Assembly: GCF_030013595.1 (NCBI RefSeq)
Contig: NZ_CP122768.1
Reading direction: 5' to 3' (one strand)
DNA from: Escherichia coli
GTDB taxonomy: Bacteria; Pseudomonadota; Gammaproteobacteria; Enterobacterales; Enterobacteriaceae
DNA: 64,000 bases
Both the position numbers and the translations under genes were made by a program. The notes beneath the pieces were generated by a model. That model made no database searches. It was not told where the DNA came from and saw nothing but the letters and a program-made list of their open reading frames with translations. Of the stretch, positions 10,274 through 14,854 are shown piece by piece (the stretch's first letter is position 1; every line of letters starts with the position of its first letter).

Positions 10274-11566
10274 TTACCTGTTTGCCCATAATTTCAGCAT
10301 CGCTTTGTGCTCTTCCTTAAGCACAATCCGCGAGCGTCTGGCTCGAATATAACTAATCGCTTCATCAACGGTTTTACAATGTCCGTAACATAACAGCCAT
10401 GCCGCCACTACCAGCGCACTGCGCGATAATCCCAACGCGCAATGGACCAGAACGCTACCTTGCTCTTCGCGTAATGTTTCCAACATCGCCACGGCCTGTC
10501 GGAGCTCCCCCTCTTCCGGAACCACCAGATCCAACATCGGTACACAAAAATAGAGTCGCTCTTTTGTCGCTCGTCCGCGAGGGAATTCAAAGGTGACGTC
10601 CAGAACCGCATTCTGTGCCGGAATATGCCGTGGAAACGCCCCTAAATAAACACCAGCCGTAATTTTGCTCACCGGCTCCAGGCGAAGGCAAAACCAACGC
10701 ATAGACAGCCACATCCCGATGCGCCATGGCAATGTCAGCCAGTAAACGGCGGGCGGGAGTTTCCCTTGACTATCTTTACCTGTTGTTATCGCGCCAAGCC
10801 CACCGTACCCACGGCCAATAATGAGTAGCGATAATACTGGCCAACATAACCAGACTGACCACCATAACTGAAGCATTATCATTAGCTCCATCAACACAAT
10901 GCACGCGCACGCGCCTACGACATATGGCAGTGCTATTTTGATTCGACGTTGATCAGGTTTCTGATAATTCCAACGACGGTCGACGGGCACCATCCAGTCA
11001 ATTAACATACCTACCGCCAGCCCTGTGATGACATCAATAAAATGATGCTGCCAGGTCGTCAGCGTCGAAATGGCGATGAGTAAAAACCATCCGCCGCAGA
11101 CTTTACGCCACCTCACAGCCAGATGCTGACGAAAGTGACGCCAAAGTAGCCAGCAGAGAATAATATGCAGCGAAGGAGACTGGTTATAAGGCAGATCAAA
11201 CAATTCAAGTTGCGAAAATAACCATCCTGTCACCCCACTCACTTCAGGACGGATAAAACTAAACTTCAGCGGATAGAGAAAAAAACCGCAGCAGGCCATT
11301 ACCGTTGCCAGAATAAGCCGGTGGACCAGTCGGCGCTGCTCAAATATCGAGCTACAAACGAACAGCGAAAATCCATATAAAAGATCCAGACTCCAGTAAG
11401 GAACAATAGTCCAGGGAAGAAAAGGGATCGCCGTTTCCCAACCGAATACCTGACTGGGGATATCATGGTTGTTAAGATCCTGAGTCGCGGTGAACTGATT
11501 AAGAAATCCATATGTGAAGAAGAAAAACGGGGCCAGCAACAATAACCAGCCAGCTCCTTGTAGCAA
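10274..11566 (-). CDS. ynbD: inner-membrane protein with C-terminal dual-specificity phosphatase domain
   Basis: CX5R phosphatase motif [10 protein letters not shown] near C-terminus, multiple TM segments; start set at an in-frame TTG (430 aa) to avoid a 92-bp overlap with ynbC; first ATG would be 11671. Confidence 0.75.
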
Positions 11567-11579
11567 TACGTTCCGGCGT

Positions 11580-13280
11580 TCAGTTGTCACGACGCACCGC
11601 CATCGAAACCGTAAAAATGCCCCACTCATCAATCCGTTGGGTGCATTTATCAAATCCGGCATCATGCACAAGCGAATCCATCTCCGCTTGAGAACGCACG
11701 CGCATTACCCACGGTTTACCATCTTTATGACTGGTTAACACCCCGGCAATCAGCTCCAGTTGTGGGTGCCACGGCTGCCCGGTGTAGATGAGAATGCCAC
11801 CCGGATCGATGGCATTGGCAAGACCTGCGAGTGAGTTTTTTACCTGTTCATTTTCGGGAAAAAGCTCATACAGTCCAGAGACAATCGCCAGCGTAGGCCG
11901 CGGAGTTAACGCGCTGAGCTCCTCCGGGTTAAACGCATCGCCCTGTTCATAACGCACCCGCCCAGACATTCCCCGCTGGGCAATCATCTCTTGCCCCTGT
12001 GCAACATTTAACTCACTGTAATCACGTAACAAAATATCGCATACGGCAGGTTCATACTCCAGCGCATCCAGTACATAGCGCCCATGCCCTGCGGCAATGT
12101 CAACCACGCGGATGGCTAAACCTTTAGCGTGGAGATCGGCAACGGCTTGTTTAATCAGCATTTGTAAATGGGTTTTGCGCTGGCGAATACCGCGCCAGCC
12201 AACATTGTTCAGGTAGATTTTGTCGATTAAGCGCCCGAATGCGTTACTGCCTTGTGGTTGATTTTGATAGACATAATCCAGCGAACTGCCTGAATCAAAG
12301 CCGGTGCTCATTCCGAGATGCAGGCCCGCAGAATGCGCCCCGAACAATTTCATCGCCTTACGCATAAAGCGATACGCCAAATCAACCGGCGATAATGGCA
12401 CGGGTCCACCAGAAAGGAGCCGCCATCGATCCGCTGATGGTCCTGTGCTGTCTTCATGCTGATAATCAAATTTTTGCGACTTGTTAGCATATAAGCGACT
12501 AATGAAGCTTTGCATTTTTTCAAATGCCTGCGCCCTGTTCTCTTCACCCAACGTGTCGTGATAAAAGCCTGGCAGCAGATGCAGCTCTTTCAGAGGACTA
12601 CGTAAACGCTGATAAAAATCAATCTGCGGTTGGCGATGCACCACATAGTCATCGCCTGATATCAGAAGTTGCGTGGGGAGCGTAATCGCCGCCGCATCGC
12701 TAACAATACGTTCAGACGTTTTATAGAGATCGAGCAAGATATTGACGGCAATCGCCCGTGTGATCAGCGGATCATTATTGAAACTCGCCACCCGTTGCCG
12801 ATCGTGGGTCAGATAACGCCCTTTCACATAGGAATTAATAAAAAACAGACCACGCAGACGATGCCATAACGCCAGTCCAGGACGTGCCAGCGGCACATAC
12901 AATTTAACCTTAAAGGCCGGAGATACCAGCACTAGTCCGCGAATAGCAGGCGCATAATCATGAACCCATGTGGCAACCATCACTGCGCCGACGCTTTGCG
13001 CGATCACAACCACCTCTTCCAGTCCGACCTGGCTGTCGCTGGCAGCAAAACGGACAAATTCATCGACATCCTGCACTGAACGCGCAAGAGACGGACTATA
13101 ACCACGCGGCCCCGAAGTTTGTCCATGCCCTCGGGCATCCCATGCATAAAAAGCAGTATCTGGCATCGCCAGTTCATCAACGATATGTTGTAGACGACCA
13201 GAATGTTCATGACCGCGATGAAATAAGACGATGACCTTTTTCGCCCCTGGCTGTAAAGTGGGCCAGTGCCGATAAAACAA
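11580..13280 (-). CDS. ynbC: bifunctional alpha/beta-hydrolase / methyltransferase-like protein
   Basis: 566-aa ORF from a TTG start; N-terminal hydrolase fold, C-terminal SAM-MTase-like region; conserved position in ynbABCD cluster. Confidence 0.75.
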
Positions 13281-13352
13281 CGCTGTATTATCACTGGTGG
13301 TAAAAAAATGTTCCCCAGGGATGCGTGAATTTTACATTTTCTCTATTTTCCT

Positions 13353-14249
13353 TCAGTAACAGCAGTAGCGAATAAAATAAAAAAATACCGGAGCGGTGAA
13401 AATTAATGAGTCAATCCTGTCAAGGAGTCCGCCATGTCCTGGTAATAGTTTTCCACTATCTTTAACACCAATATCTCGTTTGATGGCTGACATCACTACA
13501 TCGCCGCAAAAACCACTAATACCAATTAACAAACCCGCTAATAATGCCTGTAATGTATCTAGCGGTGTCAGCAACGGTCCAATAATCAGTGACGCAATCA
13601 TGGTGGTGATTACGCCGCCCATCAGACCTTCCAATGTTTTTCCCGGGCTGACTTTAGGGACCACTTTTCTTCTGCCGCAGGATTTTCCCCATAAATACTG
13701 TGCAATATCGTTTGACTCGGTTAATGCCAAAAGAAATAACACCAGTAACGCCCCGCCCTGGATATTTGTGGTTGGCAACATTAATAACCAGGCGGCATGA
13801 CTCAAGGCGAAAACGGTCATTATCCAGCCACAAAAAATGGCGCTCACGGTATGCAGAAAACCGGAGGGGTCACCCACTAAAACTCGCCAGGTGGCTAATA
13901 TCAGAAACCCAGCCAAAGGTATAAATAACAGAAACAGCTCAAAGCAATTAAAACCGATAAGCAAATAGTTAAGAGGAATACCCCAATATAACCAACGCGG
14001 AAAATGTACAGATATAAGCGTACAATATTCTTTCAATGCCAGAAAACTTATCAGCGCAAAAAACGTCAACGTCATCCAGCGTGGACCTGAAATCACCATT
14101 GAAAAACAAATGACGATGCCCCACCAGGTACGAATACGTAATGTAACTTCATCCCCTTTTCTCTCCGGTAACCGCCATACCAGAAAACGGTTTATCAGCG
14201 TTGCTAAAATTAACAACGCGAAAAGTGTTGCCAGAGATTTTTCCAGCAT
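13353..14249 (-). CDS. ynbB: CDP-diglyceride synthetase-family membrane protein
   Basis: 298-aa polytopic membrane protein; CdsA-like C-terminal signature. Confidence 0.8.
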   Translation of the reverse strand: MLEKSLATLFALLILATLINRFLVWRLPERKGDEVTLRIRTWWGIVICFSMVISGPRWMTLTFFALISFLALKEYCTLISVHFPRWLYWGIPLNYLLIGFNCFELFLLFIPLAGFLILATWRVLVGDPSGFLHTVSAIFCGWIMTVFALSHAAWLLMLPTTNIQGGALLVLFLLALTESNDIAQYLWGKSCGRRKVVPKVSPGKTLEGLMGGVITTMIASLIIGPLLTPLDTLQALLAGLLIGISGFCGDVVMSAIKRDIGVKDSGKLLPGHGGLLDRIDSLIFTAPVFFYFIRYCCY

Positions 14250-14854
14250 TATCTTTCAGCGCTCATAAGAAGCACACTCCGACAACGATTAATCGCAGTC
14301 CAGAGAAGCAGAATTGAAGTAATGCTCCATAAAAGATTATTCCATTGCATCCATTGTGGATAAATGGCAATGGCCAGCCCCCACAAACCAAATATTAACG
14401 CGCGATCGCTTTTGCCAAATGGACCGACATAACTACGAATACCGTTAATCGTCTGCGCGAGTAAACCGCAAAACTCGGTCAATATGGTGCAAAATAACAT
14501 GAGTATCACGAGTGATGCATTACTTTCAGGTAAAAATAAAAACGGTAAATAGAGCGCAATATCGGAAATAACATCGCCAGTCTCATTCAAAATCGCCCCA
14601 AGACGTGTTTGCTGATTGCACTCACGCGCCAACATGCCATCCAGCGCATTGAGTGCCATACGAATAAAAAGCACGATGGGCAATAGCAGAAACATGCCAG
14701 GATATGGCACCAACGCCAACAACAAACCGGTGAGAAGAGAAAGTGCCAAAGCGGCAAGTGTGATCTGATTTGCAGACACTTGCAGCTTATGAAGCCAAAA
14801 CATCGTCGGCCTTAACAGCGACTGAAAGAGCGGTTTTATCTGGTAGAGCGTCAT
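14249..14854 (-). CDS. ynbA: CDP-alcohol phosphatidyltransferase-family membrane protein
   Basis: Membrane protein with D-G-x2-A-R...G...D-x3-D type motif (ALDGMLAR...GDVISD); start ATG overlaps the ynbB stop. Confidence 0.8.
   Translation of the reverse strand: MTLYQIKPLFQSLLRPTMFWLHKLQVSANQITLAALALSLLTGLLLALVPYPGMFLLLPIVLFIRMALNALDGMLARECNQQTRLGAILNETGDVISDIALYLPFLFLPESNASLVILMLFCTILTEFCGLLAQTINGIRSYVGPFGKSDRALIFGLWGLAIAIYPQWMQWNNLLWSITSILLLWTAINRCRSVLLMSAER

What the first reader, a model, noticed from the sequence alone, without database searches (positions are those of the whole stretch)
10274..14854. ynbABCD: predicted membrane-lipid modification operon with phosphatase and hydrolase/methyltransferase
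Four co-directional, translationally coupled genes encode a CDP-alcohol phosphatidyltransferase, a CDP-diglyceride synthetase-like protein, a hydrolase/methyltransferase fusion and a membrane-anchored dual-specificity phosphatase (CX5R). The product of this conserved cluster is poorly understood.
Basis: established knowledge. Interest (0 to 1): 0.3.

Follow-up and report, generated by a model that had tools for sequence, protein, structure and literature searches.

The report
E. coli ynbABCD lipid-enzyme operon
This is the annotated E. coli ynbABCD operon, a trimmed and partly decaying copy of a widespread proteobacterial five-gene module of membrane-lipid enzymes whose lipid product is still unknown, and in this strain its third gene has a stop at codon 2.

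Summary
The domain calls are right, and RefSeq annotates the locus as ynbABCD.

Corrections:
- ynbC has TAA at codon 2. Only 4 of 4056 E. coli genomes carry the identical 61-mer containing it.
- Only ynbA and ynbB overlap. The other two junctions have 13-15 nt gaps.
- YnbD's "membrane anchor" is a conserved catalytic domain resembling sphingomyelin and inositol-phosphorylceramide synthases. Its active site probably faces the periplasm, and the CX5R phosphatase domain the cytoplasm.
- YnbB is not uncharacterised. Published work links it to CDP-diacylglycerol and the glycolipid MPIase.

New context from 80 proteobacterial loci:
- The four genes travel together with a PlsC-like acyltransferase that E. 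coli lacks.
- YnbA carries an invariant variant of the family motif, with Asn replacing two metal-binding Asp residues.
- In E. coli the operon is partial or absent in about 21% of complete genomes, and constraint is relaxed (dN/dS about 0.2, against 0.02-0.05 in the neighbours).

Most likely function: a self-contained CDP-diacylglycerol-dependent pathway that makes and dephosphorylates a special phospholipid, which then serves as a head-group donor at the periplasmic face. This is inferred, and the head group is unknown.

The locus is already known. Interest is modest.

The parts
14249..14854 (-). ynbA, 201 aa. A CDP-alcohol phosphatidyltransferase-family membrane protein.
   Evidence: ORF and RefSeq annotation. 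Pfam PF01066, 40 bits against a cut-off of 22. AlphaFold2 model pLDDT 93.4; the nearest folds are PIP synthases, TM 0.73-0.77. 93% identical to K-12 YnbA.
14561..14650 (-). Variant signature motif of YnbA, residues N69-D98: N-x2-D-G-x2-A-R-x8-G-x3-N-x3-D-x3-D.
   Evidence: N69 and N90 replace the first and third Asp of the family motif. Both are invariant in all 79 orthologs that cover the motif and in the natural YnbA-YnbC fusion P0123. Aligned to M. tuberculosis PgsA1.
13353..14249 (-). ynbB, 298 aa. A CdsA paralogue (CDP-diacylglycerol synthase family). Its start overlaps the ynbA stop by 1 nt (TAATG).
   Evidence: Pfam PF01148, 234 bits. The signature SAIKRDIGVKDSGKLLPGHGGLLDRID (13490-13407) is conserved in 68 of 68 orthologs. 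Function from the literature: PMC6362211, PMC7018664.
11580..13337 (-). ynbC, a fusion of a monoglyceride-lipase-like alpha/beta hydrolase (about 13244-12540) and a class I SAM methyltransferase (about 12515-11592). The K-12-type ATG is at 13337.
   Evidence: Pfam Hydrolase_4, 229 bits, and Methyltransf_20, 499 bits. A profile search hits monoglyceride lipases at 3e-37. S110, D225, H255 and the SAM motif DIAAGxGRY are invariant in 81 of 81 sequences.
13332..13334 (-). TAA stop at ynbC codon 2 (GAA in K-12).
   Evidence: Alignment with K-12. The identical 61-mer is found in only 4 of 4056 genomes. Alternative in-frame starts are ATC at 13322 and TTG at 13280.
10274..11566 (-). ynbD, 430 aa, with a TTG start. 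Eight predicted membrane helices carry a PAP2-type domain (about 11566-10781). A cytoplasmic dual-specificity phosphatase domain follows (about 10672-10277).
11033..11173 (-). PAP2-type catalytic residues of YnbD: S132 and H134 (NQSPSLH), and H174, H175 and D178 (QHHFID).
   Evidence: Invariant in all 75 sequences of the YnbD alignment. They lie in loops of net negative charge, which predicts a periplasmic position.
10418..10447 (-). Phosphatase P-loop [10 protein letters not shown] (C376, R382). The general-acid Asp is D346.
   Evidence: Read from the sequence. C376 and R382 are conserved in 73 of 73 orthologs that cover the site, and D346 in 72 of 72.
14855..15024 (-). ynbA upstream region, holding the promoter. 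In K-12 this promoter is activated by BglJ-RcsB.
   Evidence: 97% identical to K-12. TATTCTGA at 14947-14940 fits the published core wwTTCykA; this match is tentative. BglJ-RcsB activation of the ynbA promoter was shown in PMC3950696.
10235..10264 (.). An 11-bp perfect stem with an 8-nt loop, between the convergent genes ynbD and azoR. Probably a terminator or RNA-end structure.
   Evidence: RNA fold of -29.2 kcal/mol, z = -6.1 against shuffles. There is no T-run, and the simple terminator scan did not list it.

Best explanation
ynbABCD is the E. coli form of a conserved proteobacterial lipid module made of YnbA, YnbB, YnbC, YnbD and a PlsC-like acyltransferase. E. coli has lost the acyltransferase.

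Proposed mechanism, step by step:
1. YnbB converts phosphatidic acid and CTP to CDP-diacylglycerol. This activity has been shown in vitro by others.
2. YnbA transfers the phosphatidyl group to an anionic, probably phosphorylated, alcohol at the cytoplasmic face. This is inferred from its family, its fold and a conserved basic loop (R140, K148, R151). The alcohol is unknown.
3. The cytoplasmic CX5R domain of YnbD removes the extra phosphate, as PTPMT1 does for phosphatidylglycerol phosphate. Inferred.
4. The membrane domain of YnbD resembles sphingomyelin synthase and IPC synthase, and its His-His-Asp site is predicted to face the periplasm. It uses the finished lipid as a head-group donor, or cleaves it, and releases diacylglycerol. 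Inferred.
5. YnbC deacylates through its monoglyceride-lipase-like Ser-Asp-His domain and methylates through its SAM domain, acting on the lipid or its lyso form. In other species the acyltransferase re-acylates. Inferred.

In E. coli the module is under relaxed constraint. In this window ynbC is probably a strong hypomorph or a null allele.
For: - Gene identities come from Pfam and NCBIfam.
- Catalytic residues of all four proteins are invariant across orthologs at 35-77% identity from Alpha-, Beta- and Gammaproteobacteria.
- Linkage: across the 80 genome loci (81 searched with L003), YnbA was found in 80, YnbD in 78, YnbB in 68 and the acyltransferase in 66-67. No other gene is conserved across genera, apart from a small ORF in 27 loci.
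- Natural fusion: P0123 joins YnbA to YnbC, and on its contig it sits next to YnbD, the acyltransferase and YnbB.
- YnbA's fold is nearest to PIP synthases, which make a phosphorylated intermediate.
- Loop charge alternates in sign across 44 orthologs. This places the PAP2-type residues outside and the phosphatase inside.
- The YnbC hydrolase domain matches monoglyceride lipases at 3e-37.
- Distant YnbC homologs sit next to patatin, CDP-DAG-synthase-like, PAP2_3 or fatty-acid-synthesis genes.
- YnbB biochemistry is published (PMC6362211, PMC7018664).
Against: - No product has been observed, and steps 2 to 5 rest on homology and gene linkage alone.
- YnbA lacks two of the four metal-binding Asp residues (N69, N90). 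It also lacks the Arg/Lys after the fourth Asp that is needed for inositol-phosphate binding in PgsA1 (PMC6506517). Its chemistry may therefore differ from canonical family members.
- The topology is predicted, not measured.
- No head-group biosynthesis gene is linked to the cluster.
- Proteus, Providencia, Morganella and Xenorhabdus loci have YnbA, YnbC and YnbD but no YnbB or acyltransferase within 8 kb.
- The published role of YnbB, in MPIase synthesis, is not predicted by this scheme.
Confidence: 0.4

Rival explanations
1. The operon is a dedicated back-up route to MPIase, the essential glycolipid with a GlcNAc-pyrophosphate-diacylglycerol anchor. YnbB would make CDP-diacylglycerol. YnbA would transfer the phosphatidyl group to GlcNAc-1-phosphate. 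YnbC and YnbD would trim or modify intermediates.
For: - YnbB overproduction raises MPIase about as much as CdsA overproduction does.
- With Tam41p supplying CDP-diacylglycerol, YnbB rescues a cdsA knockout.
- ynbB is cold-induced together with cdsA (PMC6362211, PMC7018664, PMC11413397).
- ynbA overlaps ynbB.
- YnbA has a conserved basic loop and fewer acidic residues in its active site, which would suit a phosphate acceptor. This last point is inference.
Against: - A ynbB knockout leaves MPIase unchanged (PMC6362211).
- MPIase is essential, yet the operon is absent from 661 of 5426 complete E. coli genomes and partial in about 480 more.
- The module is conserved in Pseudomonas, Cupriavidus, Variovorax and Bradyrhizobium. 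The ECA-type glycan that MPIase carries is an Enterobacterales feature (own knowledge).
- I found no published role for YnbA, YnbC or YnbD in MPIase synthesis.
Confidence: 0.2
2. In E. coli the operon is a cryptic, decaying remnant. It makes little or no product under ordinary conditions, whatever the complete module does in other bacteria.
For: - The acyltransferase present in 66-67 of the 81 loci searched is missing from E. coli.
- Only 4285 of 5426 genomes keep at least 80% of the region. The rest show IS1 insertions, internal deletions or loss of the whole operon.
- dN/dS against K-12 is 0.18-0.24 for the four genes, but 0.02 for hrpA and 0.05 for azoR.
- ynbC has a stop at codon 2 in this window.
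- A ynbB deletion grows normally (PMC6362211). A ynbC phenotype seen in one strain background was absent in Keio strains (PMC2435150).
Against: - dN/dS is still well below 1, and all catalytic residues are intact in E. coli.
- 79% of genomes keep the full operon.
- The promoter region is conserved better than ynbA itself (97% against 92%). It responds to BglJ-RcsB (PMC3950696).
- ynbB is reported as cold-induced (PMC11413397).
Confidence: 0.25
3. The module makes an inositol phospholipid. YnbA would be a PIP synthase, the YnbD phosphatase domain a PIP phosphatase, and the YnbD membrane domain an IPC-synthase-like inositol-phosphate transferase.
For: The nearest named families for YnbA are archaetidylinositol-phosphate synthase and PIP synthase. 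The nearest solved folds are PIP synthases. The YnbD membrane domain matches AUR1.
Against: - The NCBIfam scores are far below the equivalog cut-offs: 75.6 against 180, and 49.3 against 170.
- The residue after the fourth Asp is Val or Ile (V95) in nearly all YnbA orthologs and never Arg or Lys. In PgsA1 this position is Arg94, which is essential and conserved among inositol-phosphate users (PMC6506517).
- No inositol-phosphate synthase gene is linked to any of the 80 loci.
- Inositol lipids and ceramides are not known in E. coli (own knowledge).
Confidence: 0.05
4. The module is a second route to phosphatidylglycerol. YnbA would act as a PGP synthase, and the YnbD phosphatase domain as a PTPMT1-type PGP phosphatase.
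Against: - YnbA is structurally closer to PIP synthases (TM 0.73-0.77) than to PgsA (TM 0.55).
- pgsA and the pgpABC set are each required in E. coli despite ynbABCD (own knowledge; Lu et al. 2011, cited in PMC3576122).
- This reading gives no role to the methyltransferase, the hydrolase or the PAP2-type domain.
Confidence: 0.1

Closest known systems
Actinobacterial PIP synthase (PgsA1 / RsPIPS) with a separate PIP phosphatase
   Same: The six-helix CDP-alcohol phosphotransferase fold (TM 0.73-0.77). The two-step logic of making a phosphorylated phospholipid and then dephosphorylating it. Conserved basic residues in the loop that forms the acceptor pocket.
   Different: YnbA has Asn at the first and third Asp positions of the signature motif, and Val or Ile where PgsA1 has the essential Arg94 (PMC6506517). 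Its scores fall far below the equivalog cut-offs. No inositol-phosphate synthase is linked.
PTPMT1 and its Rhodopirellula baltica ortholog (DSP-fold PGP phosphatases)
Sphingomyelin synthase / SMSr and fungal IPC synthase AUR1 (PAP2_3-type head-group transferases)
   Different: About 11-13% sequence identity. The Pfam PAP2_3 score is below the gathering cut-off. Ceramide acceptors are not known in these bacteria. PAP2 phosphatases (LpxE, PgpB) score only slightly lower.
CdsA, and the published YnbB role in MPIase synthesis
   Same: YnbB has the complete CDP-diacylglycerol synthase signature and a homologous C-terminal half. It is reported to make CDP-diacylglycerol and to support MPIase synthesis (PMC6362211, PMC7018664).
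   Different: The N-terminal half is unrelated to CdsA. YnbB does not complement cdsA for bulk phospholipid synthesis. It scores below the CdsA equivalog cut-off (111 against 385 bits). Outside E. coli it is almost always paired with a PlsC-like acyltransferase.
Monoglyceride lipases (M. tuberculosis Rv0183, human MGLL)
   Same: The Hydrolase_4 domain, a Ser-Asp-His triad and an HG-type oxyanion motif (HRGHEHSGR in YnbC against HGAGEHSGR in human MGLL, recalled from memory).
   Different: In YnbC the domain is fused to a family-specific SAM methyltransferase (PF12147) for which no characterised member turned up in the PDB, NCBIfam or literature searches. The nucleophile elbow is AQSVG rather than GxSxG.

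Membership tests
CDP-alcohol phosphatidyltransferase family (PF01066) | Profile match above Pfam's gathering score | tested here: met
   40 bits against a cut-off of 22.
CDP-alcohol phosphatidyltransferase family (PF01066) | Full signature motif D-x2-D-G-x2-A-R-x8-G-x3-D-x3-D, with four metal-binding or catalytic Asp residues | tested here: not met
   YnbA reads N69-x2-D72-G-x2-A-R-x8-G-x3-N90-x3-D94. Both Asn are invariant in all 79 orthologs that cover the motif. The roles of the four Asp residues are taken from PMC6506517.
CDP-alcohol phosphatidyltransferase family (PF01066) | Six-helix transmembrane fold of solved family members | tested here: met
   The model has pLDDT 93.4. The top 26 Foldseek hits are all family members.
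Phosphatidylinositol-phosphate synthase (equivalog) | Score above the NCBIfam equivalog cut-off | tested here: not met
   49.3 against 170 bits for PIPSynth, and 75.6 against 180 bits for archaetidylinositol-phosphate synthase.
Phosphatidylinositol-phosphate synthase (equivalog) | Arg or Lys directly after the fourth Asp (Arg94 in PgsA1), needed for inositol-phosphate binding | tested here: not met
   Val95 in E. coli. Orthologs have V (60), I (17), and L and M once each, and never R or K. The requirement is taken from PMC6506517.
CDP-diacylglycerol synthase family (PF01148) | Profile match and the conserved C-terminal signature S-x-[IV]-K-R-x4-K-D-x-G-x5-G-H-G-G-x2-D-R-x-D | tested here: met
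   233.7 bits. The signature residues are invariant in 68 of 68 orthologs.
CdsA (equivalog, bulk phospholipid CDP-DAG synthase) | Score above the equivalog cut-off; ability to replace CdsA | tested here: not met
   111 against 385 bits, and the match covers only the C-terminal part. The literature reports no complementation of a cdsA knockout (PMC6362211).
Dual-specificity phosphatase (PF00782) | Profile match, the C-x5-R P-loop, a general-acid Asp and the DSP fold | tested here: met
PTPMT1-type lipid phosphatase | Activity on phosphatidylglycerol phosphate or another lipid phosphate | not testable with these tools
PAP2 superfamily, SMS/AUR1-like branch (PF14378 PAP2_3) | Profile match above the gathering score | tested here: not met
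   20.6 bits against a cut-off of 27 for the E. coli protein.
PAP2 superfamily, SMS/AUR1-like branch (PF14378 PAP2_3) | Conserved Ser/His motif and His...Asp motif, and a fold like SMS or AUR1 | tested here: met
PAP2 superfamily, SMS/AUR1-like branch (PF14378 PAP2_3) | Head-group transfer to a lipid acceptor rather than hydrolysis | not testable with these tools
Monoglyceride-lipase-type alpha/beta hydrolase (PF12146) | Profile match and a Ser-Asp-His triad | tested here: met
   229 bits. S110, D225 and H255 are invariant in 81 of 81 sequences. The profile hits monoglyceride lipases at 3e-37.
Class I SAM-dependent methyltransferase (PF12147) | Profile match and the glycine-rich SAM-binding motif I | tested here: met
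   499 bits. D408-I-A-A-G-x-G-R-Y is invariant. The substrate is unknown.
Operon (single transcription unit) | Co-directional genes with short or overlapping junctions, and conserved linkage in other genomes | tested here: met
   The junctions are -1, 15 and 13 nt. Linkage holds in nearly all of the 80 loci.
Operon (single transcription unit) | One transcript spanning all four genes | not testable with these tools
   No RNA data were available. PMC2435150 refers to ynbC as an upstream gene in an operon.

The most novel reading that the evidence does not exclude
The complete module (YnbA, YnbB, acyltransferase, YnbC, YnbD) makes a phospholipid not yet described in Proteobacteria. A CDP-alcohol transferase with an Asn-Asp-Asn-Asp active site would build it. 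A sphingomyelin-synthase-like domain would then use it at the periplasmic face as a head-group donor for an envelope acceptor. That would be a bacterial counterpart of eukaryotic head-group transfer.
Probability: 0.3. Interest if true: 0.6.

Novelty: already known. Interest (0 to 1): 0.3.

Why it matters
ynbABCD is one of the few sets of predicted phospholipid enzymes in E. coli that still has no known product. The comparative picture makes the question testable. It points to better organisms than K-12 for the experiment: Citrobacter or Pseudomonas, which carry the complete module including the acyltransferase. It also names specific residues to mutate: N69, N90 and D94 in YnbA; S110 and D408 in YnbC; H134, H175, D178 and C376 in YnbD. 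Finally, it cautions against reading YnbB purely as an MPIase enzyme, because its gene partners are conserved far outside the enterobacteria.

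Tried and rejected
- Anti-phage defence: the PADLOC scan gave nothing for YnbA, YnbB or YnbD, and only a weak generic methyltransferase hit for YnbC. Rejected.
- RNA elements: no Rfam match at E <= 1 in 9300-15400.
- Promoter and terminator scan: counts were no higher than in shuffled sequence. The ynbD-azoR hairpin came from reading the sequence and folding it.
- Literature: nothing for the operon name 'ynbABCD', for PF12147, or for the enzyme combination in Pseudomonas. The only paper found for 'YnbA' with 'phosphatidyltransferase' was a transcriptome study. The FEMS Letters 2023 paper on cold regulation of ynbB is not held.
- The 38-sequence YnbC alignment was too diverse for the locus scan, so a 10-sequence alignment was used instead.
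- Contigs carrying the distant homologs P0165 and P0159 were too short to show context.
- Two scripts failed because the K-12 locus file was not yet available. The comparison was repeated later.
- Inositol-lipid and second-phosphatidylglycerol readings were considered and given low weight (see rival explanations).
- No structure was predicted for YnbC because both prediction jobs went to YnbA and YnbD. The nearest fold of its methyltransferase domain is therefore unknown. A sequence profile found only generic class I methyltransferases.

Full report
**1. What is in the sequence**

The window is E. coli chromosome. The 4581-base stretch matches 4765 of 5426 complete E. coli genomes. Only two are at 99% identity or more, and both are pig isolates.

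RefSeq annotates four genes on the minus strand:
- ynbA, 14854-14249
- ynbB, 14249-13353
- ynbC, 13322-11580
- ynbD, 11566-10274

The neighbours are ydbD upstream, and azoR and hrpA downstream. K-12 has the same order.

Pfam confirms each domain call:

| Protein | Pfam family | Bits |
|---|---|---|
| YnbA | CDP-OH_P_transf | 40 (cut-off 22) |
| YnbB | CTP_transf_1 | 234 |
| YnbC | Hydrolase_4 + Methyltransf_20 | 229 and 499 |
| YnbD | DSPc | 91 |

The CX5R loop is [10 protein letters not shown].

**2.

*Gene junctions.* Only ynbA and ynbB overlap (TAATG). The other two junctions are 15 and 13 nt.

*A stop in ynbC.*
- K-12 ynbC starts ATG GAA. This window reads ATG TAA, a stop at codon 2.
- The identical 61-mer around the change occurs in only 4 of 4056 genomes that hold the site.
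- RefSeq rescues the gene with an ATC start five codons downstream.
- The first canonical in-frame start, TTG at 13280, would remove residues that are invariant in the family, including F7 and D11.
- The allele is therefore probably a strong hypomorph or a null. This is inference.

*YnbD is a two-domain enzyme.*
- Its membrane part carries S132 and H134 (NQSPSLH), and H174, H175 and D178 (QHHFID). All are invariant in the 75-sequence alignment.
- The AlphaFold2 model is confident (pLDDT 93.9, pTM 0.90).
- Net loop charge alternates in sign across 44 orthologs. By the positive-inside rule, both termini and the phosphatase domain are cytoplasmic, and the PAP2-type residues are periplasmic.

**3. 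Comparative genomics**

The hydrolase-methyltransferase fusion is widespread. There are 400 cluster representatives at E <= 1e-30.

A scan of one genome per species returned 80 loci from Gamma-, Beta- and Alphaproteobacteria. Counting one Bacteroidota-like contig as well, 81 loci were searched. YnbA was found in 80 of them, YnbD in 78 and YnbB in 68.

A fifth gene is present in 66-67 of them. It encodes a PlsC-like acyltransferase of 206-219 aa, matching PF01553 with the HX4D and FPEGTR motifs.

Three gene orders occur:
- A-B-AT-C-D in Citrobacter, Hafnia, Budvicia and Chitiniphilus.
- A-C-D-(small membrane ORF)-AT-B in Pseudomonas, Cupriavidus, Variovorax, Accumulibacter and Bradyrhizobium.
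- A-C-D alone in Proteus, Providencia, Morganella and Xenorhabdus.

Nothing else is conserved across genera. E. coli has only 15 nt where Citrobacter has the acyltransferase, so E. coli has most likely lost it.

Further linkage evidence:
- One metagenomic protein fuses YnbA to YnbC. It sits next to YnbD, the acyltransferase and YnbB.
- Distant YnbC homologs sit beside CDP-DAG-synthase-like and acyltransferase genes, patatin and PAP2_3 genes, or fatty-acid-synthesis genes.

**4. Active sites**

YnbB keeps the full CDP-diacylglycerol synthase signature. YnbC keeps a Ser-Asp-His triad and SAM motif I. YnbD keeps both of its sites.

YnbA is unusual:
- The family motif has four Asp residues. In M. 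tuberculosis PgsA1 these (D68, D71, D89, D93) bind two Mg ions, and D93 is the presumed catalytic base (PMC6506517).
- YnbA has N69, D72, N90 and D94. Both Asn are invariant in all 79 orthologs that cover the motif, and in the fusion protein. This is a selected variant, not decay.
- The residue after the fourth Asp is Val or Ile. In PgsA1 the equivalent Arg94 is essential for inositol-phosphate binding.
- The fold is nevertheless closest to PIP synthases (TM 0.73-0.77), ahead of PgsA at 0.55.
- YnbA is therefore a family member by fold and profile, but it is not a PIP synthase.

**5. State of the operon in E. coli**

- Only 4285 of 5426 genomes keep at least 80% of the region. The others show IS1 insertions, internal deletions or complete loss that leaves only azoR.
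- Against K-12, dN/dS is 0.21 (ynbA), 0.24 (ynbB), 0.18 (ynbC) and 0.21 (ynbD). It is 0.05 for azoR and 0.02 for hrpA.
- Constraint is relaxed but not absent.
- The upstream region is 97% identical to K-12, while ynbA itself is 92% identical.

**6. Literature**

- YnbB is a CdsA paralogue. It makes CDP-diacylglycerol in vitro and raises MPIase when overproduced.
- It rescues a cdsA knockout only when Tam41p supplies bulk CDP-diacylglycerol. It is dispensable, and it is cold-induced (PMC6362211, PMC7018664, PMC11413397).
- The ynbA promoter is activated by BglJ-RcsB (PMC3950696).
- A ynbC transposon insertion caused polyphosphate accumulation in one strain background but not in Keio strains (PMC2435150).
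- I found no functional study of YnbA, YnbC or YnbD.

**7. Interpretation**

The best-supported model is a self-contained CDP-diacylglycerol-dependent pathway:
1. The acyltransferase and YnbB supply the activated lipid.
2. YnbA attaches an anionic alcohol.
3. The cytoplasmic phosphatase domain of YnbD removes a phosphate. PTPMT1 and its bacterial ortholog are the precedent (PMC3576122).
4. The periplasm-facing domain of YnbD transfers or cleaves the head group.
5. YnbC deacylates and methylates.

Only the YnbB step has experimental support. The head group is unknown. I give the scheme 0.4.

The rivals are an MPIase back-up route (0.2), a largely cryptic remnant in E. coli (0.25, and compatible with the main model for the ancestral module), a second phosphatidylglycerol route (0.1) and an inositol-lipid route (0.05).

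**8. Verdict**

Its interest lies in the unsolved product and in the leads above. I score interest at 0.3.

Noticed in passing
window 13332-13334 (minus strand): ynbC codon 2 is TAA instead of GAA. The allele is rare: the identical 61-mer occurs in 4 of 4056 complete E. coli genomes. RefSeq re-calls the start at an ATC codon.
   Followed up: yes
window 17465-19076: In the 99.9% identical RefSeq genome, ydbD is followed by an IS200/IS605 tnpA, paaY, a truncated paaX and a truncated helix-turn-helix gene, and then ydbL-ynbE-ydbH. Going by K-12 gene order recalled from memory, most of the paa/fea/tynA region would be missing here; pdxI, which precedes ydbD in K-12, is also not annotated here. ORFs of matching size are present in the window.
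   Followed up: partly
window 10235-10264: A strong 11-bp perfect hairpin (-29.2 kcal/mol, z -6.1) lies between the convergent genes ynbD and azoR. It has no T-run.
   Followed up: partly
window 15025-17337 (ydbD): ydbD, annotated as a DUF2773 bactofilin, has more nonsynonymous than synonymous codon differences from K-12 (33 against 18; dN/dS 0.39). It is AT-rich, at about 43% GC.
   Followed up: no
L054:10926-11468 and equivalent positions in 27 loci: A small hydrophobic ORF of about 180 aa, with no Pfam or NCBIfam match, lies between ynbD and the acyltransferase in the Pseudomonas and betaproteobacterial type of cluster. E. coli does not have it.
   Followed up: partly
P0001 (889 aa, an E. 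coli protein in the database): One database entry fuses YnbB and YnbC into a single 889-aa protein across the 15-nt spacer. This could be a real read-through allele or a sequencing or annotation artefact.
   Followed up: no
window 14249-14854 versus 14855-15024: The ynbA coding sequence is only 92.4% identical to K-12, with amino-acid changes clustered in residues 22-55. The promoter region just upstream is 97% identical.
   Followed up: partly
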